NCBI GenBank assembly: GCA_001823095.1
Contig: MHTL01000014.1
Coordinates: 1,881 to 65,880, forward strand
Origin: Candidatus Vogelbacteria bacterium RIFOXYD1_FULL_51_18
GTDB lineage: Bacteria; Patescibacteriota; Minisyncoccia; Phycocordibacterales; UBA9988
Direction: 5' to 3'
DNA length: 64,000 nucleotides
Shown in pieces: positions 7,423 through 47,785 of the stretch. Below the pieces are notes generated by a model. That model searched no databases, was not told where the DNA came from, and saw only the letters and a list, made by a program, of their open reading frames with translations. Both the position numbers and the translations under genes were made by a program. Within the stretch, counting starts at the first letter, position 1. Each line of letters opens with the position of its first letter.

Positions 7423-7458
7423 GCCGCTAGTATAGCAGAGCCCACCATTCCCGCCGAT

Positions 7459-7494
7459 GTAATAATCCTCTCACGATCGTGGAAGGATTATTAC
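7459..7494. repeat. 36-nt near-perfect palindrome gtaataatcct-ctCACGATCGTGga-aggattattac (TCACGATCGTGA-core hairpin family), between the wHTH/Cas2-like gene and dnaE
   Basis: The reverse complement equals itself except for 2 central positions. It lies about 35 nt upstream of the dnaE ATG and 14 nt downstream of the 7508-8086 gene. Confidence 0.8.
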
Positions 7495-7507
7495 AATCCC
7501 ATTTTGT

Positions 7508-8086
7508 TTATTTTAAAGGTAGGTCAAATGCTTTGCGTAGCCATCGGTCATTCTCAATAAAATCGGCAGTGAGATAGAGCACGTCTTTACCTATGTGGAT
7601 ATGCGCTTTCAAGAGCGTCACTACTTCTTGGCATTCGTACGGGTAGACCCATACACTCCGCTGGAGCTGGATAAAACCAAGTTGTGTAAGCCAGATGCGC
7701 AACGTATCTCTAGCGCCGCGCCTGGTTTCTTTGATGTCAAAGATAATGATTCTATATTTCTTATCCCACCGACGCGGTGTGGCGAGTGTTATATGTTTAA
7801 GCCGATACTGCATAAGGAGATCCCTGCCCTTTTCTGTAAGTCTCAATACCTTTCCAACTACCGGGTCTTGCTCCTGTTTGATTAACCCTTGCCGGATACA
7901 ACGCGTGACGACTACGTTTACATAGTGACACTTCTGCCGCCTGAAGAGAGGGGTGTATTTTAAGAGGCGCATTGCATTCGGCGCAACAGCGGCAAGGGCG
8001 AGGATCCCTGTGACGGCGATAAGACCAAGCACAATGGCGCTCACATCCCCTAGCACCCCCGATTTCTCTTTTTGTTTTTTCTCCAT
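7508..8086 (-). CDS. membrane-anchored winged-helix plus Cas2-like domain protein (PaaX/Cas2-fold-like), function unknown
   Basis: N-terminal TM helix (VSAIVLGLIAVTGILALAAV) and a wHTH-like segment (RCIRQGLIKQ...LRLTEKGRDLL). The C-terminal block YRIIIFDIKETRRGARDTLRIWLTQLGFIQLQRSVWVY resembles the Cas2 core (xxVVxYDIxxxxRRxKvxKxLxxyGxRvQxSVFeC). Confidence 0.55.
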   Translation of the reverse strand: MEKKQKEKSGVLGDVSAIVLGLIAVTGILALAAVAPNAMRLLKYTPLFRRQKCHYVNVVVTRCIRQGLIKQEQDPVVGKVLRLTEKGRDLLMQYRLKHITLATPRRWDKKYRIIIFDIKETRRGARDTLRIWLTQLGFIQLQRSVWVYPYECQEVVTLLKAHIHIGKDVLYLTADFIENDRWLRKAFDLPLK

Positions 8087-8087
8087 T

Positions 8088-8123
8088 GTAATAATCTTAC
8101 CACGATCGTAAGAAGATTATTAC
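8088..8123. repeat. 36-nt near-perfect palindrome gtaataatctt-acCACGATCGTaag-aagattattac, 1 nt upstream of the 7508-8086 gene start codon
   Basis: Same arms as the 7459-7494 copy (c/t difference) and the same CACGATCGT core; the two copies bracket one gene. Confidence 0.8.
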
Positions 8124-8205
8124 ACTGTACAAAATTATATAAGAGTGATATTCTATAGAAAACCCTAGCGTAGCTGGGATGATCTTTGTAAAACGAGGTG
8201 TTGAT

Positions 8206-9642: not shown

Positions 9643-9729
9643 TTCACCCATCCTCTGCTGTGGCTTTTGCCTCGACTTACCATCGGGGCTTTTTTTCTTT
9701 ACTTTTCCTCTCCTCCCGTGTATAGTAGG

Positions 9730-9963
9730 CGGATGTCAGTACGCATGCGCCATACTCGCGCCCATACGGCAAACCGCAGATCACATCATGCGATAGAGGG
9801 TGTCCGTCTGTCCACGTGTCTCAAATGCGGCGCTTTGCATGTGCGCCACCGCGTGTGCCTCAACTGCGGGAGCTACCGCGGACGCGAGGTGCTCAATGTG
9901 CTTGCCAAGGTGGAAAAGCGGCAGGAACGCATGCGCAAGCGCGAGGCAGCCGCATCGAAGTAA
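9730..9963 (+). CDS. rpmF: 50S ribosomal protein L32
   Basis: [20 protein letters not shown]... plus a CLKCG...CLNCG zinc ribbon, classic bL32. Confidence 0.85.
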
Positions 9964-10001
9964 GCTTTTTTTGTAAATTAGGCGGTAGGTTCTTTGTATC
10001 T

Positions 10002-10931: not shown

Positions 10932-11629
10932 GCACGGACTTTTCTCCCTTTGAAGCGCGGATCGGCGTGCGATTTAGAGATCGGGCTCTGCTGGAGCAGG
11001 CCTTCATACATCGCTCATACCTTAATGAAAATCCTAACATAACTCTTGGCCATAACGAGCGGCTGGAGTTTCTCGGCGATGCGGTGCTGGAGCTGGCGGT
11101 AACCGACTATCTCTACCGTAGCTACCCAAAAGAGGACGAGGGGACATTGACTGCATACCGTTCCGCACTTGTTAATGCAGTGACTATCGGTACTGTGGCG
11201 CAGGAGCTCGGTATGAACGAGCATCTCTTGCTCTCGCGCGGGGAGGCAAAAGATGAGGGGCGCGCGCGGCAGGTCATCCTTGCCAACACCTACGAGGCGG
11301 TAGTTGGCGCACTTTATCTTGACCAGGGCTACGCGTGCGCGCGGGACTTTATTACGGCACATCTCATCCCGCGCATGGACGGCATCCTTGCCGAGAATCT
11401 CTGGCTGGATGCGAAGAGTTTTTTCCAGGAAAAAGCGCAGGAGAAGGAGGGCGTTACTCCCTCTTACAACGTTCTCGCGGAATCCGGGCCCGACCACAAC
11501 AAAAAATTTACCGTTGGCGTCTACATCGGGAGCGAGCAGGTGGCGCAGGGCAACGGCCATTCCAAGCAGGAGGCCGAACAAGATGCCGCGCGCAAGGCCC
11601 TTGCCGAGAAACGTTGGAATGTCCGCTAG
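10928..11629 (+). CDS. rnc: ribonuclease III
   Basis: HRSYLNE...NERLEFLGDAVLELAV RNase III signature plus a C-terminal dsRBD; ATGA overlap with nusB-nudix. Confidence 0.9.
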   Translation: MSTDFSPFEARIGVRFRDRALLEQAFIHRSYLNENPNITLGHNERLEFLGDAVLELAVTDYLYRSYPKEDEGTLTAYRSALVNAVTIGTVAQELGMNEHLLLSRGEAKDEGRARQVILANTYEAVVGALYLDQGYACARDFITAHLIPRMDGILAENLWLDAKSFFQEKAQEKEGVTPSYNVLAESGPDHNKKFTVGVYIGSEQVAQGNGHSKQEAEQDAARKALAEKRWNVR

Positions 11630-11644
11630 TGTTATAATAATTCC

Positions 11645-13837
11645 GTGCGGTTAAAAAATATTGAGCTTTCCGGTTTTAAGTCATTTGCAAAAAAGACGCT
11701 ACTTACTTTTGACGCGCCCATTACCGCTATCGTCGGCCCCAACGGTTCGGGGAAGAGCAATATTGCGGAGGCCTTCCGCTGGGTCTTGGGCGAACAGTCG
11801 CTTAAAATACTGCGCGGTAAACGCGGCGAGGACCTGATTTTCAACGGCTCCGGCTCTGCGCCGCGGATGAGCCGGGCGTCGGTGACACTCACCTTTGACA
11901 ACAGCGGCAGGAGCTTGCCGCTCTCATTTAACGAGGTTTCCATCTCGCGCGAGGTGCACACCGACGGCGCCAGTGAGTATCTCCTCAACCGCTCCAAGGT
12001 GCGCCTCAAGGACATTGTAGAGCTCCTTGCCTCGGTGGGGCTCGGAAGCACGGGCCACCACATCATCTCGCAGGGCGAGGCTGACCGAATATTGCGCGCA
12101 CGCCCGCGTGAGCGCGAGGCCATGATTGAAGAGGCGCTCTCGCTTACGGTCTATCATCTCAAAATTGCCGAGAGCGAGCGCAAGCTCCAAAAAACACAGG
12201 AGAACCTGCGCCAGGTTGAGGCATTGCGAAAGGAAATTGCGCCGCACCTCAAGTTTTTGGGCAAGCAAATGGAGAAGATGCGCCAGGCGGAAAGCCTGCG
12301 AGATGAGCTCACGGCTCTCTATCGCGACTACCTTGCCCGCGAGGAATCCTACCTGCGGAGAACCGCACAGGAGCTTGCGGCGGCACGTACAGTACCTGCG
12401 CAGGAGCTCCGCGACATTGAAGCGCGCCTGAAAAATGCCGAAACACTCCTCTCACGGGGAGGTCCGGCAGAGAGCGACGACGAATGGACTTTCACACGCT
12501 TGCGCAGAGAGCTTGGAGAGACGGGGAATGAGCGCGCAGAACTTACCCGCAAACTTGGGAGAGTTGAGGGCATGATAGAGGTGAGGAGCGAGAGCGAGGG
12601 AACAGAGGCAGACGCCGCATCTATACCGCTCGCGGACGTCCGTACGCTCGTAGAGGACATTGAGGCGCTCATCGCGGGCAGTGAACAGAAAAGCGATTTT
12701 ACATCCATCAAGGCGGCGCTTACCGCTATTAGGGAAGAGGTAAGAATTTTTATCGGGCAATTTGCAGGGAGCATAAAGAGCAGCAAGGCAAGCACACTCT
12801 CGGGACTTACGCGCGAGAAGGAGATCATGGAGCGCGCGCTCGGCGCCGTGCTCGCTCGAGAGGAAGGACTGCGCGCGGAAGCCGATACCGTGCGTGCGCG
12901 CATTGCGGAGGCGGAAAGTCTTTCGCGCGAAAAGGAGCGGGAGACCTATGAGCTGAAGGCCGCGCGCAGCGCGCGCACGCAGGAACTCGAGTCGCTTGAC
13001 CTTAAGCGTTCCACGTTTGAAATCAGCGAGCGTGACTTCAAGGAGATGCTCGCAGAGGCGCGGGTTTTGATTGGACGGGAGGCGCTCAACTATAGTTCTG
13101 AACATTTGAATCTTGATACCGAGACGCGTGCCGCACAGGAAGCGCGGCACAAGCAGATTGACCGGCTCAAGTTCAAGTTGGAAGACCTTGGCGCCGGAGG
13201 CGACGACATCGTGAAGGAGTACCGAGAGGTGAGCGAGCGTGACAGCTTTCTCTCGCGCGAGCTTGAGGACCTTTCTGCGAGCGAGCAATCCCTCCATCAG
13301 GTGCTCCGGGAGCTTGAGGAGATTCTGGAGCGCGAGTTCCATGAGGGGATTGAGAAGATTAATGCCGAATTCCAAAAGTTTTTTGAGTTGATGTTCGGCG
13401 GCGGCACGGCGTCTATTTTTGTCATTAAAGCAAAGCGGCGCGCTCGGGGAGAGGAGGAAATTTTGGAGGAAGGGCAGGAGGAGACGGGCATAGACATATC
13501 GGTCTCACTCCCTCGCAAAAAACTCCGCGGCATTCATATGCTCTCCGGAGGCGAGCGGGCGCTTACCTCCATCGCACTTTTGTTTGCTATCTCACAGGTT
13601 AACCCGCCGCCCTTCCTCATCCTTGACGAGACGGATGCCGCTTTGGATGAGGCAAACTCGCGCCGCTACGGCGACATGATAGAGAACCTTTCGCACTACT
13701 CCCAGCTCATTGTGATTACCCACAACCGTGAGACCATGAGCCGCGCGGGCATTCTCTACGGCGTTACCATGAACGCCGACTCAATCTCAAAACTCCTCTC
13801 CATCCGCTTTGATGAGGCAGTAGATATTACAAAATAG
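11645..13837 (+). CDS. smc: SMC-family chromosome segregation ATPase (short, about 730 aa, GTG start)
   Basis: N-terminal Walker A GPNGSGKSNI, long coiled coil, and C-terminal LSGGERALTSIALLFAI...ILDETDAALD signature/Walker B. Confidence 0.85.
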   Translation: MRLKNIELSGFKSFAKKTLLTFDAPITAIVGPNGSGKSNIAEAFRWVLGEQSLKILRGKRGEDLIFNGSGSAPRMSRASVTLTFDNSGRSLPLSFNEVSISREVHTDGASEYLLNRSKVRLKDIVELLASVGLGSTGHHIISQGEADRILRARPREREAMIEEALSLTVYHLKIAESERKLQKTQENLRQVEALRKEIAPHLKFLGKQMEKMRQAESLRDELTALYRDYLAREESYLRRTAQELAAARTVPAQELRDIEARLKNAETLLSRGGPAESDDEWTFTRLRRELGETGNERAELTRKLGRVEGMIEVRSESEGTEADAASIPLADVRTLVEDIEALIAGSEQKSDFTSIKAALTAIREEVRIFIGQFAGSIKSSKASTLSGLTREKEIMERALGAVLAREEGLRAEADTVRARIAEAESLSREKERETYELKAARSARTQELESLDLKRSTFEISERDFKEMLAEARVLIGREALNYSSEHLNLDTETRAAQEARHKQIDRLKFKLEDLGAGGDDIVKEYREVSERDSFLSRELEDLSASEQSLHQVLRELEEILEREFHEGIEKINAEFQKFFELMFGGGTASIFVIKAKRRARGEEEILEEGQEETGIDISVSLPRKKLRGIHMLSGGERALTSIALLFAISQVNPPPFLILDETDAALDEANSRRYGDMIENLSHYSQLIVITHNRETMSRAGILYGVTMNADSISKLLSIRFDEAVDITK

Positions 13838-13874
13838 GCCTTAATGACGGAAGTGAGACTTCCGTCATTAAGGC
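13838..13874. terminator. bidirectional hairpin (17-bp perfect stem, GAG loop) between convergent smc and rnr
   Basis: gccttaatgacggaagt-gag-acttccgtcattaaggc; the rnr stop lies within the stem. Confidence 0.6.
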
Positions 13875-15439
13875 ACCAATTCGTAGTCAATCTGATTTTT
13901 GCCGGTATCAACGCGGCAGACGCGGATGCTCACCGTATCGCCGAGGCGGTAAGCGCGCTTGCTGTGCTCGCCGACGAGGAGCATGCTCTGCTCGTTGAAT
14001 ACGTAATAGTCGTCAGGGAGCTTGGTAACGTGTATGAGCCCGTCAGCGCCGGTACTCTCCTCTCGCACAAAGACGCCAAAGTTAGTCACGCCGGTAATAA
14101 TCCCGTTACTCTCCATGCCGATGTGCTCCGCGAGATACTCAACCTGCTTGGCCTTGAGCGAGTCACGTTCGGCCTCCGCGGCAAAGACCTCACGCTCGGT
14201 AGCATGCAGAGCCGCCCTGTCGCAGTGCTGCAGGAGTTTGGCGGATACGCGGCGTCCCTTGAGGTACTCGGTGAGGAGGCGATGCACAAGTAGGTCCGGG
14301 TAGCGACGGATGGGAGAGGTAAAGTGCGTGTAGTGCTTGAAGGCGAGTCCAAAGTGCCCGATATTTTTCATCGAGTAAATTGCCTTTGCCATGGCGCGTA
14401 GCGTCGCAGAGTGCACAAAGTATTGCTGTGGCGTTCCCAGCACCTCGATGAGGAGTCGGTTGAGCTCGGCAGGATTTACCTGCTTGCCCCGTAAAATTGA
14501 ATAGCCCATGGGTCTTGCGTAAAGGTCCAGAAAGGCGATTTTCTCCGTGTCAGGAACATCATGGATGCGGTACACAAAAGCGCCGGGTTTGTTCTGCGCC
14601 GCGCGGGAGGCAAACTCCGCCACGCGGCGGTTGGCGAGGAGCATGAGGTCCTCAATAAGCTGGTGGCTCTCGCTGTGGGGTACGACATAAAATGAAAGGG
14701 GCTTGCCATCGGCATCCAATTCACAGCGCAGTTCGGTATCGTGGATGGCAATCGCTCCCGCGTCGAACTTTTTTTTCCGCAGGGCTCTCGTGATACGCGC
14801 GAGTGTGCCAAGCATCTCGCCCCATGGTCCACCATTTCCATCCATGATCTCCTGTGCTTCTTCATAGGTGAGCCGCGCGGCAGAGCGGATAATACTCCTG
14901 CCAAACCATTCCTTGGTGATACTGCCGTCCTTGCTGGTTTCAAACACCGCCGAGTAGCAGAGCCGTTCCTTGTGCGGCAGGAGCGAGCAGAGTGTATTAG
15001 AGAGCGCCTCGGGGAGCATGGGGATGACACGGTCAACGAGGTAGATAGAAGTTGCACGCTTGTGCGCCTCTTTATCCAAGGCGCTCTCGGGGCTGACAAA
15101 GAAGGATACGTCGGCGATGTGTATTCCCACTTCATGTGTGCCATCGGGAAGTGCGCGCAGTGATATGGCGTCGTCAAAATCTTTGGCGCTTTTAGGATCA
15201 ATCGTGATGGTCGGCACATTGCGAAAGTCGCGACGTCCGCCTGCGGCGGACTCGCGCTCCATAATTTCCGCCTCCCTTGCAAGGAGGGCTTGTGCCTCCC
15301 TCTCTGCCTCATGCGGAAAAGCCCCCGGGAGAGGGGGTCGCACGCGCACTTTTGTGCGCACCGAAGCGCCCTTTTTGACCATATACATTATCATAGCACA
15401 TCTGCCGGGCCTGCCTGCCGGTAGGCGGGCCGGATACAA
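13868..15439 (-). CDS. rnr: RNase R / RNase II family 3'-5' exoribonuclease (RNB + S1; lacks N-terminal cold-shock domains); true start may be a few codons downstream
   Basis: RNB motif IDPKSAKDFDDAISL near the N-terminus; C-terminal S1-like domain. Confidence 0.85.
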   Translation of the reverse strand: MYPARLPAGRPGRCAMIMYMVKKGASVRTKVRVRPPLPGAFPHEAEREAQALLAREAEIMERESAAGGRRDFRNVPTITIDPKSAKDFDDAISLRALPDGTHEVGIHIADVSFFVSPESALDKEAHKRATSIYLVDRVIPMLPEALSNTLCSLLPHKERLCYSAVFETSKDGSITKEWFGRSIIRSAARLTYEEAQEIMDGNGGPWGEMLGTLARITRALRKKKFDAGAIAIHDTELRCELDADGKPLSFYVVPHSESHQLIEDLMLLANRRVAEFASRAAQNKPGAFVYRIHDVPDTEKIAFLDLYARPMGYSILRGKQVNPAELNRLLIEVLGTPQQYFVHSATLRAMAKAIYSMKNIGHFGLAFKHYTHFTSPIRRYPDLLVHRLLTEYLKGRRVSAKLLQHCDRAALHATEREVFAAEAERDSLKAKQVEYLAEHIGMESNGIITGVTNFGVFVREESTGADGLIHVTKLPDDYYVFNEQSMLLVGEHSKRAYRLGDTVSIRVCRVDTGKNQIDYELVP

Positions 15440-24043: not shown

Positions 24044-24049
24044 TGAAAA

Positions 24050-24085
24050 GACACCGAGTGTTTAGGTGCCCCAACACTCGGTGTC
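24050..24085 (+). terminator. hairpin terminator after rpoC (13-bp stem gacaccgagtgtt / aacactcggtgtc)
   Basis: Begins 7 nt after the rpoC stop; member of the ACACCGAGTGT stem family. Confidence 0.6.
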
Positions 24086-24098
24086 TCTCATTATACAT

Positions 24099-27131: not shown

Positions 27132-27341
27132 CTACCAATCAAAATGGTAACCTATTATCCCAAAAAGTATCCCAAAAAAGGCAGTAGGTATACTAACCCA
27201 CAAAGTAGCTCCGAGCCAATCCACCGTCCCTCCAACTTCGAGGATTTGTACCAAAGGAAAGGCACATGCGATCATTACAGTGATCGCTACCGGAATGCCA
27301 AAAGCAAACCCCTTCCCAATCCTACCCCATCTGTTTAGCAT
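27132..27341 (-). CDS. hypothetical small two-TM membrane protein
   Basis: Two hydrophobic helices; no recognised family. Confidence 0.35.
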   Translation of the reverse strand: MLNRWGRIGKGFAFGIPVAITVMIACAFPLVQILEVGGTVDWLGATLWVSIPTAFFGILFGIIGYHFDW

Positions 27342-27441: not shown

Positions 27442-27475
27442 GTACTAATTTATTCACGATCGTGAATAAATTAGT
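27442..27475. repeat. 34-nt perfect palindrome tactaatttatTCACGATCGTGAataaattagta (TCACGATCGTGA-core hairpin family)
   Basis: Exact self-complementarity; lies about 100 nt upstream of the start of the minus-strand gene at 27341. Confidence 0.8.
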
Positions 27476-27836
27476 ATGTTTGTGGGTGATAAAGAACCCC
27501 GTCTAATCTGCTAAAGCAGACGGACGGGGCGAGATGTTAGGTTACTCGAAGTGACTGGAGTCCGACTTCAGTCAATCAGAGCGGTACTTTTTGGCCGGTG
27601 GCCGATGAGCATCTTGCTCTTGGTAATATATGCGCTTGCAGAGGGCGCATGAGTTGATTTCGTTCATGAGCGCTCTCCGTTTGTCAAAATCCACTTCTCC
27701 TGCGGCAAGTTGCTTGATGACTTCTCTTTTTATACATCGATGCACCGTGCTCTGTGTGTTAGATATAGCCGGCACGCTGTCCACCTCCCTTCTTTTTTTA
27801 ATGTAGCACAGAGAAGCTCTGTGGTAAAATAAAAAC

Positions 27837-37986: not shown

Positions 37987-38661
37987 CTAACTCAAATCTT
38001 TCTTCCTTTCCTCAAATTCTTTTTTATCAATCTCACCTTTAGCATACCGTTTCTGCAAAATTTCAAGCGCGGATTTTTCGTGATTGTGCGTGCCGCGCGA
38101 TTGATTCGTAAGCCATTTGATAAGCGCGACAATACCCGCGATTATCAATACCCACCAGAGGATCATAAAAATCCAGCCGAACGAGCCAAAAGGCCCAGAT
38201 CCAAAATTCATCATACTCCCTCCCCACATCATATTCATCATCGGCATCCAGCCGCCGCTTATGGCCGGAAATGATGCTGATGTATCGCAACCAGAAAGAC
38301 GTTTACCCATGACGATGTGAATCTGCTCTTCGCCGTCTTCGCCATGCGCCTGAATCATCATGGCGTTCATGGCGGCATGGGACTCTCCAGCCATTTGTCC
38401 CATAAAATACTCGCCGAGAACTCCAAACTGCTCATCGCTTAAATTCTCGCAAGCGATTTCTTTTGCTTGCAGTGTATCCCAAAGCCCTTTGCCTTCCTGT
38501 TCTTCACGGGCGGTATGTTCAACGACCTCGTTCCAATCAACTGTCGTATTGGAGAGATTACCCATCCCTTCAACACCGTTCAGGACAGGCATTTGAGCAT
38601 CTACCGAACCGTCAACAAGTATTGACCCAAAAATGAAAGCCGTGATTAAAAGTTTTTTCAT
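37987..38661 (-). CDS. secreted/membrane Met-rich protein with C-terminal SHOCT domain
   Basis: Signal peptide MKKLLITAFIFGSILV, a Met-rich segment GGWMPMMNMMWGGSMMNFG, a TM helix, and a C-terminal LEILQKRYAKGEIDKKEFEERKKDL SHOCT-like motif. Confidence 0.6.
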   Translation of the reverse strand: MKKLLITAFIFGSILVDGSVDAQMPVLNGVEGMGNLSNTTVDWNEVVEHTAREEQEGKGLWDTLQAKEIACENLSDEQFGVLGEYFMGQMAGESHAAMNAMMIQAHGEDGEEQIHIVMGKRLSGCDTSASFPAISGGWMPMMNMMWGGSMMNFGSGPFGSFGWIFMILWWVLIIAGIVALIKWLTNQSRGTHNHEKSALEILQKRYAKGEIDKKEFEERKKDLS

Positions 38662-38683
38662 ACAGTCGTATTTTAGCTTATTC

Positions 38684-39067
38684 TTATTGTTTAGAAAAGA
38701 CGAAATACGAAAGATACCCAAGGAGTCCGAGTTGAATCGTAGGCGTTAAGCCGACGGAGAGAATTGGGATTATGGGCATATACTCATTATACGCCCATCT
38801 TCCCGTGTTGAGAGCGTACAATTCAATACATATCGAAATCAAGACGCCAATCGGAATAATGAGCCAGCTTCTTTTTCTGAGACTGGCGACCAGTACAAAG
38901 GGTAGAGTCAATAGGATAATAATAATCGCATCAGCGATAGAAGCTCGCAACAGAATAGTCTCGGTTATCTCTCCGCCCATATAAACGATATAAAAATAGG
39001 AATGTAAATTTTCCCAAATTAGATTAAGAAAAAATGACAAAATAAAAATTAAAGATACTTTTTTCAT
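38684..39067 (-). CDS. hypothetical multi-TM membrane protein (very AT-rich gene)
   Basis: Four predicted hydrophobic helices; composition is markedly AT-richer than the backbone. Confidence 0.5.
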   Translation of the reverse strand: MKKVSLIFILSFFLNLIWENLHSYFYIVYMGGEITETILLRASIADAIIIILLTLPFVLVASLRKRSWLIIPIGVLISICIELYALNTGRWAYNEYMPIIPILSVGLTPTIQLGLLGYLSYFVFSKQ

Positions 39068-39201
39068 ACTGTTTATTTTTCCGCATGAGCGGTATGCTCC
39101 TTAAAACGTTTCCTAAGATCGGTGGTTGATCCAAAATAAAGTTGCGAATCTTTTTTACTTTTCAAAATACATGTGTAGTTCATAGAATTTGGTGTGGGGG
39201 T

Positions 39202-40104
39202 TTATTTTTGTTCCCAGGGACTATTCAAAGACTCTTCTCCAATCTTCCACACGCCCTTTTCCAAGAAAGCCTCGATGGTCTGGCGGGTGGCCTTGTTGAT
39301 AAGATTTGAGTGAGAAAATTTGTTGCTCTTTGCATAGTCGGAAAGCAGAACAATCTTTTTGCTCTCTAAATATGCCAAACGCTTGTGATAACTATTGGTA
39401 AGAGCCTTACCAATAATCTCTTCCATAATTTCGGTTGCCCCCTTTTCATCAAACTCCCTGAAAGCGTCGTAGTATTTCTTCTGGTCGATAAACTTGATGT
39501 TTATCGGCACAAAGCCTTCCCGTATGAGGAGATAGTTGTTGATGACGCGCCCAATGCGGCCATTCCCGTCCATGAATGGGTGGAGATATTCAAACGCCAG
39601 ATGAAGCCGCGCGATGCGCTTGATGATATTTTCATGACTTGTCGCATTGTATTCCGCAAACATCTTCTCAAGACTCCCGTTGATTTCTTTTGGAGCAGGA
39701 GCAATATAACTGCCGACACGAACATACTCGTCATCCTTGCGAAATCGTCCGGCAACTTCATCACGAATATTTGACAGGAGCATCTTGTGGAGTGACAAGA
39801 TAACCTCAAAGCCGAGCTCCTGCTCTTTAGCCCGCTTGTTTATGTACGACACGACTCGGGCAAGATTTTTTGCTTCGAATATTTCTCGTTCAGAAATATA
39901 CCGGTCCAGATCAATCTGGAGAAGTATCTTTTCCGTTTCCTCAAGAGAGAGAGTACTGTTCTCGATAGCGTTTGAGTTGTATACCTGATCTGCGATTTCC
40001 GCTTCGCTTATAAGCTTAATAAGCGCATCTTTTCCGATGGCCGCTTTGTAATACCTTTCCCTAAACAGATTGATTTTATTAAGTGCTCTAGCTGTTTTCG
40101 CCAT
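39202..40104 (-). CDS. Fic/DOC-family protein (putative AMPylase)
   Basis: Canonical Fic motif HPFMDGNGRIGR. Confidence 0.9.
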   Translation of the reverse strand: MAKTARALNKINLFRERYYKAAIGKDALIKLISEAEIADQVYNSNAIENSTLSLEETEKILLQIDLDRYISEREIFEAKNLARVVSYINKRAKEQELGFEVILSLHKMLLSNIRDEVAGRFRKDDEYVRVGSYIAPAPKEINGSLEKMFAEYNATSHENIIKRIARLHLAFEYLHPFMDGNGRIGRVINNYLLIREGFVPINIKFIDQKKYYDAFREFDEKGATEIMEEIIGKALTNSYHKRLAYLESKKIVLLSDYAKSNKFSHSNLINKATRQTIEAFLEKGVWKIGEESLNSPWEQK

Positions 40105-40121
40105 ACGGATTAAGTATAGTC

Positions 40122-40157
40122 TTTTTCACGACTTTGTCAACTCTAATCGTGAAAAAC
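40122..40157. repeat. split variant of the TCACGA/TCGTGA hairpin: tttttcacga-[16 nt]-tcgtgaaaaa, 18 nt upstream of the Fic start
   Basis: 10-nt perfect inverted arms containing the TCACGA half-sites, separated by ctttgtcaactctaa; a further TTTCACGATTTTG half-site lies at about 40177. Confidence 0.5.
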
Positions 40158-40582
40158 TCTCTTTTTTCTTATACTTTCACGATTTTGGACATATAGCCCC
40201 TCTGCCTTTCAGCAGTATAACAAAAAGTGTCTCATATTGGCTCCGGAGTTAAAACCTTCACAAACCCCGAAGGAAAAACAAGTTCCCTACGAGGCATGCT
40301 TTTGAAATTATTCTGCCAAATCTGATACACAAATCCAAAAAGCAAAATCTGAAGTGATGCGCCCCGCCACTATTTTTCTGGGACAAAGGAGGCGGGGCTG
40401 GGCGACCTGTCCGCCGTAGCTTTAGCAAAGGCGGAGCGAACCCTCTCGTCTTCAAAATCCGAGTTCGTATCTAGTTTATTGGCTCCCACTACTGAACGAG
40501 TTTAGAACAATAGATTGGAAGGGTATAAAGCAAGAACTTGAGCTTAGCGGTATTATGACGCTACTGGGCCAGAGAGGTTTTG

Positions 40583-41026
40583 TTAGCGTCTAACCTTATC
40601 GGTTTCAAGATGGTTTTCTGTTATGGCCACAACATAGAAAGTTCGTTCTGGCTCAATATCAAAATAGAATATCCGTGCTCTTTGTTGTAGTTTTATTTCC
40701 TTGAGTTCAATGCCTTCAGCAATGCCCCTGTATAGCTTTTTGTATTCGCTATCGTATCTCATAGGTATTCGGTCCACATAGTTTCTTTGAAAATCGGCCT
40801 CGGGGCGGATTTTTGTTCCTATGGTTTTGAGAGTTTCTATGGCCCTTTTTGCTTTGTTGCCGCCGAGCTCTGAAATCTCGCACATTCTTTCGTTGTATTT
40901 TGCAAAAGAGATTACATAAGGAATTGCCTCAGGTGCTTCTGTGTCCTGAGGCAATTCTTGAGCGATTTGAGAAAGTTTGTCTATTTCATCACTTGGCTCT
41001 GTGGCTTGTTTTGGAATGTCGGTCAT
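40583..41026 (-). CDS. uncharacterised 147-aa protein, candidate toxin partner of the Panacea-domain antitoxin (weak RelE/HigB-like C-terminus)
   Basis: ATGA overlap with the upstream Panacea gene. C-terminal YRGIAEGIELKEIKLQQRARIFYFDIEPERTFYVVAITENH resembles the RelE/ParE/HigB (Gp49-like) beta-strand core; acidic N-terminal 50 aa. Confidence 0.5.
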   Translation of the reverse strand: MTDIPKQATEPSDEIDKLSQIAQELPQDTEAPEAIPYVISFAKYNERMCEISELGGNKAKRAIETLKTIGTKIRPEADFQRNYVDRIPMRYDSEYKKLYRGIAEGIELKEIKLQQRARIFYFDIEPERTFYVVAITENHLETDKVRR

Positions 41027-41526
41027 TTGTGCTTCTTGGCCTCTTCCAATTTTTCAGAGTAGTAATTTTTCATTGATTCAAGGGATATTTCGTTTTCTGA
41101 GTTTTCATAATGCTGAAGGCCCTTTCGTGCTTCTCGCCACGGCTCTTCTGAGTGCGTGAGCATTTCCAAATAACCAGCATCAAGTTTTCCGTATGCGTTC
41201 CATACGGTATCAATAAGTTCTTTTGACTTGCCCGAAATGTTAAGCGTGTCTGATTTTATCTCTTCCTGTATCGGTTCAAATCCGAACTTTTTATATAGCA
41301 CATACAAACTGCGAACTGCTGGCCCGTGCACCCACGCTTCAATCGGCTCACTGAAGAGTTTTTTGTTATTCAATACCAAAGACCAGGCCTGTGCGTAATA
41401 GACCAGTTTTTGGAGTTTTTTATTCGTTATCGGCTCTTTTTCTTGGCTGGCGAGATATAAGAAATATCGGCCTACATCCCGTGCCTTTAAGGTTTTTTGA
41501 GAGTGTAAGGCCATAGGTATTTTCAT
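41023..41526 (-). CDS. Panacea-domain (DUF4065, SocA/PanA-like) antitoxin
   Basis: NKKLQKLVYYAQAWSLVLNNKKLFSEPIEAWVHGPAVRSLYVLY matches the Panacea core, and the N-terminal DVGRYFLYL matches the family leader. Confidence 0.75.
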   Translation of the reverse strand: MKIPMALHSQKTLKARDVGRYFLYLASQEKEPITNKKLQKLVYYAQAWSLVLNNKKLFSEPIEAWVHGPAVRSLYVLYKKFGFEPIQEEIKSDTLNISGKSKELIDTVWNAYGKLDAGYLEMLTHSEEPWREARKGLQHYENSENEISLESMKNYYSEKLEEAKKHK

Positions 41527-41537
41527 AGTAGCAATTC

Positions 41538-41555
41538 TGTAAACAGTTGTAAACA
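41538..41555 (-). promoter_or_regulatory. direct-repeat operator-like element TGTTTACA-ac-TGTTTACA (minus-strand sense) upstream of the Panacea gene
   Basis: Two 8-mers at 10-bp spacing, 12 nt upstream of the proposed ATG, in an AT-rich 110-bp gap after abiEii. Confidence 0.4.
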
Positions 41556-41638
41556 GACAGGAAGATGTTGATATTTCTGGCCGAGCGTGTAAACTAAAGT
41601 AAAGTATGAAAGAAGTAATGATGGATAGACTCATAATT

Positions 41639-42931
41639 TTATTTTAACAAGTCATCAAAGTCGTGTCTGATTAGATCTTCTTTCCGAAGAACGATCTGTT
41701 CCTTCTGATTCAGGTTGTCAGCGGATACACGGATAAGTTTTGTCATCAGGGTGTCACCAACAAGTTCATAGTTAATTTTCTTCAAATAGGCCTCGATTTT
41801 TTCGTAAAATAGAGAGGCGTATTCTTTCTGCTTTTTCTCTGATGTCGGTCTACTGCTAGAACCATTTGCTGAAAACTCGATGCTGTCACTCACTACGTTG
41901 TTGATTGGAAACGAAACCTCGATGTCTTTGAAAAGAAACCAGTACTCGCTCAAGTTATATATAATGCGCACGTGGTCGCCCTCTTTCGTGCTGTACTCAA
42001 AAATGAAAGAGAACACATCAGTCCGGAAGTCCTCGAACACTCGCACTCTTTCGTATTTTGATACGGTTCTGATTTTATATTTATCGCGTAGCTGAAAGAA
42101 AGTGTCGCGCCAGTTCGCAAGCCAGTTAGTGACGAAACGAGGGTCAAGAAAGAGCGGTGAGAGGTCATTTTTGAGATTTTCTTCGCTTACGTTGTTCATT
42201 TTTACCGCAAGTTTTGTGAACAGTGTCCGATAATCTTTTGCTTCTTCCACATTCTTTGCTTTGAGATAGTCAAGGTCGGGTACGATTTTCTTACTCATGT
42301 ACCAAAGTAAATCGTAGATGTCGCGCCCTTTTTCTTCATACACCGCCTCGCCGACGCCACGCGTTCCGCGAAGGAAAATTGCAGCGATTTTGCTCGCCAT
42401 AAGAGAAGAGAGGTTGTATGTCCGGATTACGAATGACAACTGTCCATGATTCTGCGGTATTCTTTCCGTAACAACGCCGCCGGGCGGTGCAAACTGATTA
42501 CAATCAACTTTCACATGAATCCATTCGGAAGCGTAGCCCTCAATCAAACTGCCAGCTCGGAATTTAAGCGTTATGCCTCGATTGTTCGTGATAGAGATTT
42601 TCAAAAATTCCGCGTCAACTCCATAGACTTTTGCGAAATGCTTTTCTGCCTCTTCTTTGAATTCGTTGAGAAAGTCGCTGTCAACCTTGTGGCTTACCTC
42701 AAAATCCAAATCAACGGACATTCGGTCGAGGTCATAGCAGATGCGAAGCGCTGAGCCGCCATACATTATCCATTTGTTATATTCCGGATGATGATAAGTG
42801 AAATCGAGGACATAGAACTGCAACTCCTCTTTAAGAACGTTGAGGCGCGTCTCGGGATCGGAAATGCTAACGCCATAGGTCGAAAGGCCATCAAGTTTGC
42901 TTTTCAGGACTGTTAGTATCTGATCACTCAT
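41639..42931 (-). CDS. abiEii: AbiEii/AbiGii-family nucleotidyltransferase toxin (DUF1814)
   Basis: IMYGGSALRICYDLDRMSVDLDFEVS matches the AbiEii NTase motif (GGTAL...R.SEDLDF); 430 aa. Confidence 0.85.
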   Translation of the reverse strand: MSDQILTVLKSKLDGLSTYGVSISDPETRLNVLKEELQFYVLDFTYHHPEYNKWIMYGGSALRICYDLDRMSVDLDFEVSHKVDSDFLNEFKEEAEKHFAKVYGVDAEFLKISITNNRGITLKFRAGSLIEGYASEWIHVKVDCNQFAPPGGVVTERIPQNHGQLSFVIRTYNLSSLMASKIAAIFLRGTRGVGEAVYEEKGRDIYDLLWYMSKKIVPDLDYLKAKNVEEAKDYRTLFTKLAVKMNNVSEENLKNDLSPLFLDPRFVTNWLANWRDTFFQLRDKYKIRTVSKYERVRVFEDFRTDVFSFIFEYSTKEGDHVRIIYNLSEYWFLFKDIEVSFPINNVVSDSIEFSANGSSSRPTSEKKQKEYASLFYEKIEAYLKKINYELVGDTLMTKLIRVSADNLNQKEQIVLRKEDLIRHDFDDLLK

Positions 42932-43541
42932 GGAGATATGTTTTTACTTTTTCATAAAATTTCTTCCGCTCCTCCTCGTCCATCTCATCAATATCTATCC
43001 GCAATTCTTTTACCATCTTTGTAATATCTTCAAACCGGACGCTTCGAAACTGATGCGTTCTGAAGTACAGCAAGTCGAATAGTGCTTTTGATGGAGAAGC
43101 AATAAAAAAATCAAATTTTCCTTTCACAAGAGAGTAATCCGAAAAGAGATTCTTATTGATTGACTGGTATGAAAAAGTCCCCGCCTTCGTTTCATAATCC
43201 CGTGTGATTTTCGGTGTAACCGACGTGATAGAGCGTATCGCTTCAGTGGCGAGATTATAATACTGGAGCGCAGTCCACGAGCTTACGTAGGAAGGCGTAC
43301 GGAGAATGTTTGCAAGGTAGAAAGAATACGAGATATCGCTTTTATTATCTGCAAAAAAATCGGCGGTAATATACAAGCCATTTTTCAGCGGCAAAATCTC
43401 TTTGCGCTTCAAAAAACGGCTGATGTATGTATTTACCGTACTATTTTTCAGCCCCAACTGACTACCAAGCTGGTATACTGTACTTTTGGTGAAATGGGGC
43501 AAACTATTAAGCTGTTCCAACAGATTTTTCTTGCTTTTCAT
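42924..43541 (-). CDS. abiEi: AbiEi-family antitoxin/transcriptional regulator (wHTH N-domain)
   Basis: N-terminal wHTH (TVYQLGSQLGLKNSTVNTYISRFLKRKEILPLKNGLYI); 8-nt overlap with abiEii. Confidence 0.8.
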   Translation of the reverse strand: MKSKKNLLEQLNSLPHFTKSTVYQLGSQLGLKNSTVNTYISRFLKRKEILPLKNGLYITADFFADNKSDISYSFYLANILRTPSYVSSWTALQYYNLATEAIRSITSVTPKITRDYETKAGTFSYQSINKNLFSDYSLVKGKFDFFIASPSKALFDLLYFRTHQFRSVRFEDITKMVKELRIDIDEMDEEERKKFYEKVKTYLHE

Positions 43542-44061
43542 AACTATGACAATAGTGTATCATATATGAAATGAGCAGTCAAAAGCTCATATAGCCCGCC
43601 CCGCCTTTTTGCCACCCCATTCCAATTCAAATCCCCCCCGCGAAAAAAATAAGAATGGAGAAGGGGCAAAAGGCGAGGGCGGAACGCCGAGGCTCTGCGA
43701 GGCGTTGGGCGGAATGGTTAGAGTCACCACAGAGTCCGAGCGTACGATTCAATCAGAAGCCACCACGCACGCGGAGCGTGCGATTAGTCATCAGTCGGAT
43801 TATTGCGAAAATATGTTCGAACTTTTTCTAACAAACACAGCAAACTTAGATACCCTTCGGAATTTTTGGAACCGAGGGGCGCGCTTCGCGCGCTGTATGG
43901 AAAATCGGCGAGGAGGGCAAAGGATTTTTTCGGAGTGGCAAAAAGCGCGCTTCGCGCGCAGGTGGGGGTTCCATGATGAGTACATCATTCAAAACAAAGT
44001 TTTGCGAGCCGACGGGCGGCAATTTCAAAGCGATTGAGAGCATAGCTTTCCCTTTTTCTAT

Positions 44062-45520: not shown

Positions 45521-45629
45521 TTTGCGCTCGCAAGCGATTTGCTTTGAACCTAAAAAGTCGTGGAAAATTCTTGCCGATTTGCCCGCCGAGGGGCGAAGCC
45601 CCGAGGCGGAGAACTCGTATCATCCTATT

Positions 45630-47682: not shown

Positions 47683-47736
47683 CATATTTGACAGAGAAGA
47701 GCTCTGGGACTCACTTAATTTTTTGTACAGAACAAA

Positions 47737-47778
47737 AATCATCACATCCTATCACGATCGTGATAGGATGTGATGATT
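47737..47778. repeat. 42-nt perfect palindrome aatcatcacatcctaTCACGATCGTGAtaggatgtgatgatt (TCACGATCGTGA-core hairpin family), 8 nt upstream of the pyrD-like ORF start
   Basis: Exact self-complement. Confidence 0.85.
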
Positions 47779-47785
47779 TGTAACA

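What the first reader, a model, noticed from the sequence alone, without database searches (positions are those of the whole stretch)
27442..27475. Second member of a TCACGATCGTGA-core hairpin family with different but perfectly compensating arms
tactaatttatTCACGATCGTGAataaattagta is a 34-nt exact palindrome. Its arms are unrelated in sequence to the 7459/8088 copies, but the central TCACGATCGTGA is shared. This pattern (arms free to vary as long as they pair, core fixed) appears independently at five loci: 7459, 8088, 27442, 40122 and 47737. It therefore looks like a structured element (hairpin or cruciform) whose loop-proximal GATC-containing core is under sequence constraint. That is not expected for a plain protein operator or for a plain terminator. 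Every copy lies 1-100 nt upstream of a start codon.
Basis: seen in the sequence. Interest (0 to 1): 0.65.

Follow-up and report, generated by a model that had tools for sequence, protein, structure and literature searches.

The report
Cognate palindromes of mini-PaaX regulators
The 34-base palindrome is real and belongs to a class of long DNA palindromes that, in Paceibacteria (candidate phyla radiation), bracket the genes of a small PaaX/Cas2-like DNA-binding protein family, so it is most likely the binding site of one such protein, in a bacterial group whose gene regulation is almost unknown.

Summary
Position 27443-27476 is a perfect 34-nt loop-less palindrome, and three others (7458, 8087, 47736) share the CACGATCGTG centre. 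The locus at 40122 is not a member.

The window comes from a Candidatus Vogelbacteria genome. Sites 7458 and 8087 bracket a 192-aa gene with a winged-helix domain and a Cas2-like PaaX_M domain ("mini-PaaX").

Across 87 homologues in about 80 genomes, CG-RY-CG-centred palindromes sit just upstream and just downstream of the gene. Arms are the same within a locus and differ between paralogues. 63 of 72 strong palindromes lie in the 3.5% of DNA flanking these genes.

A 65%-identical paralogue (P0002/P0121, probably the same organism) is flanked by TACTAAT-N4-TCACGATCGTGA-N4-ATTAGTA. That matches the outer block and core of the finding's site.

Best explanation: an orphan operator of that paralogue. 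The site span is PaaX-like, with a conserved centre, a conserved outer block (±10-17) and a variable linker, and sites overlap promoters of predicted leaderless genes.

Caveats are a predicted N-terminal membrane helix and downstream copies lying between convergent genes.

The parts
27443..27476 (.). Site C, the finding. It is a perfect 34-bp palindrome, TACTAAT-TTAT-TCACGATCGTGA-ATAA-ATTAGTA. I read it as an orphan site of the P0002/P0121-type mini-PaaX paralogue.
   Evidence: The sequence is shown. The same outer 7-mer and 12-bp core flank the P0002/P0121 genes. The site is identical in a 99% identical strain, L095. The single-strand DNA fold is -11.1 kcal/mol, z = -8.4.
8087..8124 (-). Site B, the upstream palindrome of the mini-PaaX gene. 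On the gene strand it reads TGTAATAATCTTCTTACGATCGTGGTAAGATTATTACA followed directly by ATG. It contains a predicted extended -10 element, TGgTAAGAT (8094-8102), 7 nt before the ATG, which predicts a leaderless mRNA.
   Evidence: The sequence is shown. The same layout, CGTGnTAnnAT + 7 nt + ATG, is found in the orthologues and paralogue L086, L088 and L096. The promoter and the transcription start are inferred, not mapped.
7508..8086 (-). The mini-PaaX gene (192 aa). It has an N-terminal hydrophobic helix, a winged-helix domain and a Cas2-like (PaaX_M) domain.
   Evidence: Pfam PF20803 matches at 1.5e-18. TIGR02277 PaaX and TIGR01573 Cas2 give partial matches. The AF2 model has pLDDT 82. The best Foldseek hit is E. 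coli PaaX 8a39, followed by Cas2 structures. There are 256 homologues, almost all from Patescibacteria.
7458..7495 (.). Site A, the downstream palindrome of the mini-PaaX gene. It lies 13 nt after the stop codon and 23 nt upstream of the predicted dnaE promoter.
   Evidence: The sequence is shown. Its outer block TGTAATAAT is identical to that of site B. It is conserved next to dnaE in L086.
7429..7437 (-). Predicted extended -10 element, TGcTATACT, for dnaE, 6 nt before the ATG at 7422. This predicts a leaderless mRNA.
   Evidence: I read it from the sequence. The motif gctctgcTATACT followed by 6-8 nt and ATG is conserved in L086 and L096. It is inferred, not mapped.
47736..47779 (.). Site D, a perfect 44-bp palindrome with the same 12-bp core. 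Its outer arms (ATCATCACAT) differ from the other sites. It lies 6 nt upstream of the DHODH-like gene. Its right arm holds extended -10-like TGaTAGGAT and TGtGATGAT. No cognate protein was identified.
   Evidence: The sequence is shown. The fold is -19.9 kcal/mol. No gene flanked by D-type arms exists among the fetched loci.

Best explanation
Site C is a double-stranded DNA binding site (operator) for a dimeric mini-PaaX protein, that is, an N-terminal hydrophobic helix, a winged-helix domain and a Cas2-fold dimerisation domain.

This family is expanded in Paceibacteria, with several paralogues per genome. Each paralogue's gene is bracketed by two copies of its own long palindrome, one at its promoter and one just after its stop codon. 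A few extra orphan copies sit at other promoters.

Inferred mechanism:
- The Cas2-like dimer sits over the conserved CG-RY-CG centre.
- The two winged helices read the paralogue-specific outer blocks at about ±10-17 bp. This geometry resembles E. coli PaaX on TGATTC-N27-GAATCA.
- In this clade the promoter-proximal arm itself carries an extended -10 element, with the ATG 7 nt further on, so the mRNA is predicted to be leaderless. Binding should therefore occlude RNA polymerase and give autorepression.

Site C carries the outer block and core of the P0002/P0121 paralogue, which is encoded elsewhere, probably in the same genome. Sites A and B belong to the gene in the window.

The near-perfect symmetry, including mirrored changes at unread linker positions, is ascribed to hairpin-templated (quasi-palindrome) correction, to selection for cruciform-competent DNA, or to both.

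What is shown: the gene-site association, the paralogue specificity, the block structure and the protein fold. What is inferred: binding itself, repression, the promoters and the cause of the symmetry.
For: 1. The protein is a PaaX/wHTH/Cas2-fold homologue.
2. In 1.18 Mb from about 80 genomes, 63 of 72 strong CGRYCG- or CTATAG-centred palindromes lie in the 3.5% of DNA within 200 nt of a family gene. Of 87 genes, 42 have an upstream copy, 48 a downstream copy and 32 both. CGRYCG hexamers near family genes have palindromic arms in 48% of cases against 1.7% elsewhere.
3. Arms are identical within a locus and differ between loci and between paralogues. L068 holds two paralogues with unrelated arms and different centres.
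4. Orphan copies carry the arms of a family gene about 5 kb away (L083:10567, L084:4469).
5. P0002 and P0121 are flanked by TACTAAT-AAAT-TCACGATCGTGA-...-ATTAGTA, which matches site C. P0121 is about as abundant as the window's protein (89 against 109 index blocks). Its contigs share the window's GATC depletion, o/e 0.35-0.47 against 0.41.
6. Block structure: the centre (±1-4) and the outer block (±10-17) are conserved between the two copies of a locus, and the linker (±5-9) varies. Weaker members keep only the centre and outer block. Outer-block identity tracks protein identity, 0.66 at 60% or more against 0.35-0.40 background. The linker shows 0.47 against 0.33.
7. The sites span 34-44 bp here, close to the 39-bp PaaX operator (PMC9493321).
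8. Sites overlap or abut promoter-like elements in four related loci.
Against: - No binding data exist.
- All 35 aligned members have a very hydrophobic 19-22-residue N-terminal helix (Kyte-Doolittle mean 2.2, low pLDDT). More Lys/Arg lie on its N-side (4.2 against 2.7), although net charge is equal on both sides. If the topology is N-in/C-out, the DNA-binding domains would be outside the cytoplasm and could not act on these sites.
- About one third of downstream copies lie between convergent genes, where there is no promoter to control. So does the orphan C-type copy in L093.
- Mirrored compensatory changes between two copies presumably bound by the same protein are not predicted by base-specific recognition alone.
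- Orphan sites are rare, about 8 in 1.1 Mb of other genomes. The regulons would therefore be tiny.
- No cognate was found for site D.
- It is not proven that P0121 is encoded in the same genome as the window.
Confidence: 0.6

Rival explanations
1. The palindromes are structure-specific DNA elements (cruciform or single-strand hairpin). They are the substrates of a self-contained, REPtron-like or invertible cassette. In this reading the mini-PaaX protein uses its Cas2-fold domain as a nuclease or recombination factor that acts at the CG-RY-CG centre. The gene flanked by two sites is a semi-selfish unit that can invert, move or seed orphan copies.
For: - The gene is bracketed on both sides by the same palindrome, also between convergent genes.
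- Mirrored compensatory changes occur in excess.
- Downstream copies are almost perfect, with 13 mismatches in 368 positions against 39 upstream.
- The only asymmetric positions are the central dinucleotide, which is AC or GT in 52 of 64 sites. This recalls crossover sites whose polarity is set by a central dinucleotide.
- The cassette is inverted between the same dnaE and rnhB neighbours in the window compared with L086 and L096.
- An orphan C-type copy is present in a 95% identical sister strain where the window has none.
- The family keeps the Cas2 motif set, including the β1 Asp (FDI) and QxSVW, plus an invariant C-terminal END motif.
Against: - Paralogues sit at conserved syntenic positions across genus-level divergence: alaS-gene in L088, L099 and L101, and ychF-...-gene in L090, L097 and L098.
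- Paralogues within a genome are only about 45-65% identical, so there is no sign of recent transposition.
- Orphan copies are few.
- The relative orientation of the central dinucleotide in the upstream and downstream copies is random, 9 flipped against 9 the same (my count).
- Weak members are not continuous stems.
- The closest characterised relative, PaaX, is a repressor, and Cas2 catalysis is dispensable even in CRISPR adaptation (established knowledge).
- Only one inversion was seen.
Confidence: 0.17
2. The elements act as RNA hairpins. In the upstream copies they would be 5'-leader structures, and in the downstream copies transcription terminators or mRNA stabilisers. The protein association would then be incidental or at the RNA level.
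For: - Downstream copies follow stop codons by -5 to about 90 nt.
- Some are extended by an A-run and a T-run, like bidirectional terminators (L067 9591-9644, L072 1322-1375).
- In L093 a C-type copy replaces the hairpin that follows smc in the window.
- The predicted hairpins are stable.
Against: - In most loci the upstream copy lies upstream of the -10 element and so would not be transcribed from the gene's promoter.
- Site C and most other sites lack a U-tract and have AT-rich stems.
- Mismatches show no G·U excess over A·C on the sense strand: 9 against 8 upstream and 5 against 4 downstream.
- No Rfam family matches.
- Weak members are not continuous stems.
Confidence: 0.08
3. The palindromes are symmetric bidirectional promoters in their own right, with -10-like elements in both arms, or supercoiling-sensitive cruciform promoters. 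The protein would play no essential part.
For: - Extended -10-like motifs lie in the arms, and an ATG follows 6-8 nt after them at sites B and D and in L086, L088 and L096.
- The family-wide half-site is A-rich at -15, -13, -12 and -10.
Against: - This does not explain why the elements flank one particular gene family 25 times more often than expected, nor why arms are paralogue-specific.
- It does not explain copies between convergent genes.
- In most other clades the -10 element lies outside the palindrome.
Confidence: 0.1
4. The element is a GATC-dependent feature, either a Dam-type methylation switch or a restriction-related site (CGATCG is the PvuI site).
For: GATC is depleted about 2.5- to 3-fold in the window (101 observed against 294 by shuffling; o/e 0.41). 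Even so, all four sites keep GATC at the centre.
Against: - Across the family the centre is mostly CGACCG or CGGTCG (52 of 64 sites), sometimes CGGCCG or GCTATAGC, none of which contains GATC.
- Relatives with GATC centres, such as L086, show no GATC depletion (o/e 1.09).
- At most this is a lineage-specific overlay.
Confidence: 0.03

Closest known systems
E. coli / Pseudomonas PaaX repressor and its operator (TGATTC-N27-GAATCA)
   Same: Both have an N-terminal winged helix and a Cas2-like middle domain (Pfam PaaX_M). PaaX is the best structural match (8a39). The operator is long, about 39 bp, with inverted half-sites far apart. PaaX represses its own promoter by steric hindrance (PMC9493321).
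   Different: The mini-PaaX proteins are 175-205 aa and lack the PaaX C-terminal ligand-binding domain. They carry an extra N-terminal hydrophobic helix. The whole site, including the centre, is palindromic and has a conserved CG-RY-CG core. The gene is bracketed by two copies. The family is multi-copy per genome and has no link to phenylacetate genes.
REP elements and their RAYT genes (REPtrons)
   Same: In both, a single gene is flanked on both sides by its cognate palindromic repeats. Different paralogues are paired with different repeat sequences in one genome. Orphan copies lie in intergenic regions, including between convergent genes.
   Different: The protein is not a Y1/HUH transposase. 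Orphan copies are few: 2 in about 74 kb here and about 8 in 1.1 Mb elsewhere. The palindromes are longer and loop-less, and no conserved 5' GTAG-type tetranucleotide is present. A separate Y1_Tnp gene flanked by GC-rich hairpins exists just outside the window (L103), and it uses unrelated hairpins.
Controller (C) proteins of restriction-modification systems and their C-boxes; more generally, autoregulated TF families with family-wide operator architecture and member-specific half-sites
   Same: These are small dimeric HTH proteins that bind palindromic sites at their own, often leaderless, promoters. The operator has a conserved centre and variable specificity positions (PMC2632904, listed; its abstract only was seen).
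   Different: The fold differs (wHTH plus Cas2-like, not Xre-type HTH). The sites are much longer, a second copy lies downstream of the gene, and no associated restriction-modification genes were seen.
Integron attC sites and other structure-recognised hairpin recombination sites
   Different: attC sites are imperfect, with extrahelical bases that mark the strand, and are recombined by a tyrosine integrase as folded single strands. They flank diverse cargo genes. Here the cargo is always the same protein family, no integrase is associated, and weak members are not continuous stems.

Membership tests
PaaX-family transcriptional regulators (protein) | N-terminal winged helix plus a central Cas2-like (PaaX_M) domain | tested here: met
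   PF20803 matches at 1.5e-18. TIGR02277 matches residues 56-161 to model positions 37-139. The wing motif LTxKG is conserved (T83, G86). The top Foldseek hit is PaaX 8a39.
PaaX-family transcriptional regulators (protein) | C-terminal helical ligand-binding domain (PaaX_C) that senses phenylacetyl-CoA, with full-length equivalog score | tested here: not met
   The protein ends at residue 192, right after the Cas2-like domain. The TIGR02277 score is 31 bits against a cut-off of 264.6. No PaaX_C hit was found. No paa genes appear in any locus listed.
PaaX-type operator (DNA) | Two inverted half-sites about 27 bp apart, about 39 bp in total, overlapping the regulated promoter | tested here: inconclusive
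   The span (34-44 bp), the conserved outer block at ±10-17 and the promoter overlap all fit. The extra conserved centre and the full palindromy are not PaaX features.
CRISPR-associated Cas2 | A stand-alone Cas2 of about 90-100 aa, encoded next to cas1 and a CRISPR array | tested here: not met
   Only the first ~40 model positions of the Cas2 profiles (N-terminal part of the Cas2 fold) match, at 24.1 bits against a cut-off of 24.5. No Cas1 family appears among the Pfam hits listed for neighbouring genes in any locus. No repeat array is present, only two palindromes about 640 bp apart. I ran no dedicated Cas1 or CRISPR-array search.
REP/RAYT (REPtron) | The flanked gene encodes a Y1 (HUH) transposase-like protein | tested here: not met
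   Pfam, NCBIfam, PADLOC and PHROGs give only PaaX_M and Cas2 matches.
REP/RAYT (REPtron) | The gene is flanked by cognate palindromes, with many dispersed intergenic copies | tested here: inconclusive
   The flanking is met. Dispersal is low in the DNA available: 2 orphans in about 74 kb here and about 8 in 1.1 Mb elsewhere. The whole genome was not available.
Intrinsic (Rho-independent) terminator | G+C-rich stem with a short loop, followed by a U-tract | tested here: not met
   The stem of site C is AT-rich outside the CACG core, and the next bases are TGTTTGTGGG. Only a few downstream copies in other genomes carry A and T runs.
Known structured RNA families (Rfam 15) | A match at gathering score | tested here: not met
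   Only tRNA-Asn was found in the whole window.
Integron attC | Imperfect hairpin with extrahelical bases, R/L core sites, an associated IntI integrase and diverse cargo | tested here: not met
   The palindromes are perfect or symmetric, the cargo is always the same family, and no tyrosine integrase neighbours were seen. Recombination itself cannot be tested with these tools.

The most novel reading that the evidence does not exclude
The palindrome-gene-palindrome unit is a new kind of autonomous DNA module. A membrane-associated wHTH-Cas2-fold protein would recognise, and possibly cut or recombine at, the CG-RY-CG centre of cruciform-forming palindromes that bracket its own gene. This would be a REPtron-like or invertible cassette built on a Cas2 fold instead of a HUH or recombinase fold. 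Orphan palindromes such as the one at 27443 would be its dispersed footprints. If so, Cas2-like domains would have a sequence- and structure-specific DNA-processing role outside CRISPR.
Probability: 0.13. Interest if true: 0.85.

Novelty: new variant of a known kind. Interest (0 to 1): 0.6.

Why it matters
Almost nothing is known about transcriptional regulation in candidate-phyla-radiation bacteria. They have tiny genomes, few recognisable regulators and no genetics.

Here a lineage-expanded family of PaaX/Cas2-like DNA-binding proteins can be paired, by sequence alone, with its long palindromic sites. More than 500 relatives occur in species representatives, with several paralogues per genome. 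This gives:
- a readable protein-DNA specificity code (outer block against paralogue);
- predicted autoregulatory, leaderless promoters;
- a small set of target genes, here dnaE, a DHODH-like gene and a small membrane protein.

The work also corrects the widespread annotation of these genes as 'CRISPR-associated endonuclease Cas2'. It raises a testable question about why very long operators stay perfectly symmetric: hairpin-templated correction or cruciform function.

Tried and rejected
- HIP1-like cyanobacterial repeat: GCGATCGC is absent from the window.
- Known RNA family: none found.
- Other family genes in the window: none by tblastn.
- The locus at 40122 as a member: rejected.
- Site C region as a relic of a degraded paralogue: similarity to the P0121 locus extends only 12 nt beyond the palindrome, so this is unresolved and not claimed.
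- Search for a gene flanked by D-type arms among all fetched loci: none found. L045 has CACAT arms in a different register.
- Extending the genome beyond the window: the left-edge protein is not on record. The right edge gave 10 kb more with no further site.
- Polarity of the central dinucleotide relative to the gene: 9 flipped against 9 the same, so there is no rule.
- RNA-strand bias of mismatches: none.
- Defence or phage family membership: only partial Cas2 matches, and no PHROG.
- Literature: no paper in the library links PaaX-like or Cas2-like proteins of Patescibacteria with palindromes.
- Formal covariance model or the count of structure pairs on the pooled sites: not run. The sites were chosen for being palindromic, which would make the result circular. 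I used the within-locus comparison and the position-only control instead.
Full report
**1. The observation**

The sequence TACTAATTTATTCACGATCGTGAATAAATTAGTA is a perfect 34-nt, loop-less palindrome at 27443-27476. This is one base to the right of the coordinates given.

The 12-mer TCACGATCGTGA, allowing one mismatch, occurs four times against 0.07 expected. Three other long loop-less palindromes share the centre:
- 7458-7495 (site A, 38 nt);
- 8087-8124 (site B, 38 nt, less perfect);
- 47736-47779 (site D, 44 nt, perfect).

Together with the finding's site (site C), they are four of the five longest zero-loop palindromes in the window. They are also the only CGRYCG hexamers in the window whose positions ±10-17 are fully self-complementary.

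It lies upstream of a Fic gene in a low-GC island that carries a large serine recombinase, SocA- and AbiEii-type toxin-antitoxin genes and tRNA-Asn. I do not count it as a member.

The arms are not wholly unrelated. Site C reads tgTACTAAT at -19..-11 where A and B read TGTAATAAT, in the same register. Site D shares ATCCTnTCACGA with site A.

**2. Context and organism**

Identical proteins are found in Rifle-aquifer assemblies and in MAGs named Candidatus Vogelbacteria (Paceibacteria, candidate phyla radiation).

Sites A and B bracket a 192-aa gene (7508-8086, minus strand). Site B abuts its ATG. Site A lies 13 nt after its stop codon and 36 nt before the dnaE ATG.

The protein has the following features:
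- a very hydrophobic N-terminal helix;
- a winged-helix domain with the LTxKG wing motif;
- a Cas2-like PaaX_M domain.

An AlphaFold model (pLDDT 82) matches E. coli PaaX (8a39) best, then many Cas2 structures and Rv0674. The protein lacks the PaaX C-terminal ligand-binding domain. I call it mini-PaaX.

Public annotations call many homologues 'CRISPR-associated endonuclease Cas2'. However, no Cas1 family appears among the Pfam hits of neighbouring genes in any locus listed.

**3. The key comparative result**

I fetched 79 loci encoding relatives from GTDB species representatives. More than 539 relatives exist, several per genome. I found the following.

- The homologous genes are flanked, just upstream and just downstream, by long (24-54 nt) near-perfect loop-less palindromes with a conserved CG-RY-CG centre. 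Arms are the same within a locus and differ between loci. Examples are L036, L039, L043, L048, L056, L067, L069, L083, L084 and L085.
- A second clade uses a GCTATAGC centre.
- L068 carries two paralogues with unrelated arms and different centres.
- Of 72 strong palindromes of these classes in 1.18 Mb, 63 lie in the 3.5% of sequence within 200 nt of a family gene.
- Of 87 genes with complete flanks, 42 have an upstream copy, 48 a downstream copy and 32 both.
- As a control free of ascertainment bias, I took every CGRYCG hexamer and scored only the bases beyond it. 48% of those near family genes have palindromic arms, against 1.7% elsewhere.

**4. Site C has a cognate**

P0002 is a 65%-identical homologue in a different genomic context (after alaS). 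It is flanked by TACTAATAAATTCACGATCGTGATTAAATTAGTA upstream and TACTAATAAATTCACGATCGTGAATTTATTAGTA downstream. These carry the same outer 7-mer and the same 12-bp core as site C.

A pattern scan of JGI metagenomes for TACTAAT-N4-TCACGRYCGTGA-N4-ATTAGTA returned only four stretches:
- site C itself, in a 99% identical strain (L095);
- the two copies around the P0002 gene, found twice (L092, L094);
- one extra orphan copy (L093), in a 95%-identical sister of the window's organism.

P0121 belongs to the same 90% cluster as P0002 and is flanked by the same palindromes. It is nearly as widespread as the window's own protein, 89 against 109 index blocks. Its contigs share the window's unusual GATC depletion, o/e 0.35-0.47 against 0.41, while related genomes show about 1.1.

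Site C is therefore best read as an orphan site of this paralogue, which is probably encoded elsewhere in the same genome. The A/B type differs from the C type by one base in the outer block (TAATAAT against TACTAAT), so cross-recognition by the window's own protein is not excluded. No cognate was found for site D.

**5. Anatomy of the sites**

I compared the upstream and downstream copies within 23 loci.
- Positions ±1-4 and ±10-17 are nearly always identical between the two copies.
- Positions ±5-9 vary.
- Similarity decays beyond ±18.

Family-wide, the half-site is R-C-G-R at -4..-1, and A dominates at -15, -13, -12 and -10. Weaker members keep only the centre and the outer block palindromic (L008, L062, L070, L033, L037).

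Outer-block identity between genomes rises with protein identity, from 0.35-0.40 background to 0.66 at 60% or more. The linker rises from 0.33 to 0.47. Physical linkage confounds this comparison.

The reported E. coli PaaX operator is TGATTC-N27-GAATCA, 39 bp in all (PMC9493321). That matches the span and the position of the outer block here. A Cas2-like dimer over the centre with two winged helices reaching the outer blocks is a plausible geometry, but it is inferred.

**6. Relation to promoters**

In the window's clade the gene-proximal arm reads CGTGnTAnnAT followed by 7 nt and the ATG:
- window site B: TGgTAAGAT-tattaca-ATG;
- L086: TGaTACAAT-tattact-ATG;
- L096: TGaTAGAAT-tattata-ATG;
- L088 and L099: TGaTTAAAT-tagtaca-ATG.

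This is an extended -10 promoter embedded in the palindrome, driving a predicted leaderless mRNA. A bound dimer would occlude it.

In other clades a -10-like element lies 3-18 nt beyond the palindrome, and an ATG often follows 6-8 nt after it.

For dnaE, the motif gctctgcTATACT followed by 6-8 nt and ATG is conserved in three genomes. Site A lies 23 nt upstream of it in the window and in L086, and 48 nt upstream in L096.

Site D carries TGaTAGGAT and TGtGATGAT in its right arm, just before the DHODH-like ATG.

Site C lies 13 nt upstream of a canonical TTGACT-17-TATACT promoter, which is followed by a Shine-Dalgarno sequence and a 69-aa two-helix membrane protein ORF on the minus strand.

All promoters are predictions. 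No transcript data were available.

**7.

Between the two copies of one locus, changes are mirrored far more often than independent mutation predicts. There are 23 double changes against about 5.6 expected. 14 of them leave both copies perfectly paired, against about 2 expected. An example is L085, with GCG...CGC against AGA...TCT.

Among C-type sites the four linker bases differ (TTAT, AAAT, TAAT). They stay self-complementary in three of the four distinct sites. The exception is the promoter-bearing upstream copy.

So symmetry itself is maintained, even at positions that are not sequence-conserved. Base-specific reading by a dimer does not explain this. Hairpin-templated (quasi-palindrome) correction during replication would, and so would selection for cruciform or hairpin formation.

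Mismatches are G·T and A·C in equal numbers on the sense strand, along with transversion mismatches. An RNA-level hairpin is therefore not favoured.

**8.

GATC is not the constrained feature. The central dinucleotide is AC or GT in 52 of 64 strong sites, AT in 10 and GC in 2. This is a marked excess of asymmetric centres. It may reflect avoidance of GATC and GGCC restriction targets, or some need for polarity.

The upstream and downstream copies are flipped relative to each other in 9 loci and the same in 9, so no polarity rule emerges.

In this organism GATC is depleted about 2.5- to 3-fold, yet it is retained in all four sites. That is a lineage-specific curiosity.

**9. Evidence that does not fit a plain operator**

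- About one third of downstream copies lie between convergent genes. So does the orphan in L093.
- Downstream copies are more perfect than upstream ones.
- The N-terminal helix is membrane-like in all 35 aligned members (Kyte-Doolittle 2.2). Its flank charges are ambiguous, with more K+R on the N-side but equal net charge. If the DNA-binding part were outside the cell, the model would fail.
- The cassette is inverted between identical neighbours. The window has rnhB(-) gene(+) dnaE(+). L086 and L096 have dnaE(-) gene(+) rnhB(+), and the outer synteny is unchanged. Because the two flanking palindromes are inverted repeats of each other, recombination between them is the obvious route.

These points keep alive a more exotic reading, a REPtron-like or invertible module with a Cas2-fold DNA-processing protein. 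I rate it at roughly 0.13-0.17.

Against that reading:
- paralogues occupy conserved syntenic positions across genera;
- paralogues within a genome are highly diverged;
- orphan copies are rare.

**10. Comparison with known systems and novelty**

The closest known system is PaaX and its long bipartite operator. The protein passes the domain test but fails the equivalog test, because it has no C-terminal domain and scores 31 bits against a 264-bit cut-off. It is therefore a distinct subfamily.

REP/RAYT units resemble the bracketed-gene layout, but the protein fold and the copy number differ.

I found no paper in the searchable library that describes this family or its palindromes.

I rate it a new variant of a known kind: an autoregulated dimeric repressor with a palindromic operator. 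Its unusual features are gene bracketing, very long symmetric sites, a paralogue-specific code and possibly membrane anchoring.

**11. Verdict**

- Confidence in the operator model is 0.6.
- Interest is 0.6.

Noticed in passing
window 7458-8124 compared with L086 9962-10631 and L096 2546-3242: The mini-PaaX cassette lies between the same neighbours (dnaE and rnhB) in all three genomes. It is inverted in the window relative to the 67%-identical orthologues. The breakpoints fall within the two flanking palindromes.
   Followed up: partly
window, whole; also L099, L100: GATC is depleted about 2.5- to 3-fold (101 observed against 294 by shuffling; o/e 0.41). CTAG is depleted about 5-fold. Related genomes such as L086 and L015 show no GATC depletion. 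No methyltransferase or restriction gene was searched for.
   Followed up: partly
window 7508-8086 (protein residues about 12-34) and all 35 sequences of alignment A1: A conserved, very hydrophobic N-terminal helix (Kyte-Doolittle mean 2.2) is followed by an APNA motif. This suggests a membrane anchor on a DNA-binding protein. The topology is unresolved.
   Followed up: partly
window about 38000-45705: A low-GC (41-44%) island carries Fic, SocA/Panacea and AbiEii genes and a large serine recombinase (44062-45435). It sits next to tRNA-Asn (45630-45705) and is probably an integrated element. The TTCACGA half-site cluster at 40122-40190 lies upstream of its Fic gene.
   Followed up: partly
window 45366-45395 and 45467-45496: Two identical 30-nt hairpins (AGAAAATCCCGTC-GCGG-GACGGGATTTTCT) lie 101 nt apart, between the serine recombinase gene and tRNA-Asn.
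   Followed up: no
window 24049-24086 and 54927-54970: A second hairpin family has shared arms (AGACACCGAGTGT ... ACACTCGGTGTCT) at two distant loci, one of them at the boundary between the rpoC-like and dnaG-like genes. They may be terminators or REP-like elements.
   Followed up: no
window 49601-49634: A perfect 34-nt GC-rich palindrome (GGAAGTGAGACCCGCCGCGGCGGGTCTCACTTCC, centre CCGCGG) lies inside the 265-aa ORF 49385-50182. It is unrelated to the CGATCG family.
   Followed up: no
L103 12141-12685 (about 1.4-2 kb beyond the right end of the window): A Y1_Tnp (IS200/RAYT-like) gene is flanked by GC-rich hairpins (ACCCCGCGGCTTGCCGCGGGGT and ACCCCACGGCTTGCCGTGGGGT). This is a classical gene-flanked-by-hairpins unit in the same genome, and it uses unrelated hairpins.
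   Followed up: no
L093 185-1533 and 6937-7630 (95%-identical sister of window 8020-14342): The sister strain has two insertions relative to the window. One is a 406-aa protein with repeated Xre-type HTH units, between site B and rnhB. The other is a 177-aa acidic protein with a C-type palindrome at its 3' end. That palindrome replaces the window's hairpin at 13838-13874.
   Followed up: partly
L040, L041, L047, L052, L066, L068 (479-1209), L073, L037: A second clade of the family uses palindromes centred on GCTATAGC instead of CG-RY-CG. The layout, one copy upstream and one downstream of the gene, is the same.
   Followed up: partly
L019, L033, L073, and the window: Family genes recur next to dnaE and rnhB in several distant lineages, in different arrangements. 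In L019, L033 and L073 the palindrome lies at the 3' end of dnaE. This suggests an old link with the replication genes or a rearrangement hot spot.
   Followed up: no
L101, L102 (P0121 loci): No contig carrying P0121 exceeds 20 kb, and several end within about 300 nt after the downstream palindrome. Long perfect palindromes or strain variation may break assemblies here.
   Followed up: no
window 27132-27341 (minus strand): An unannotated-looking 69-aa ORF encodes a protein with two hydrophobic helices. It has a canonical TTGACT-17-TATACT promoter and a GGAGG ribosome-binding site, and it lies in the 767-nt gap between rpoD and the glycerate kinase gene. Site C lies 13 nt upstream of its -35 element.
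   Followed up: partly
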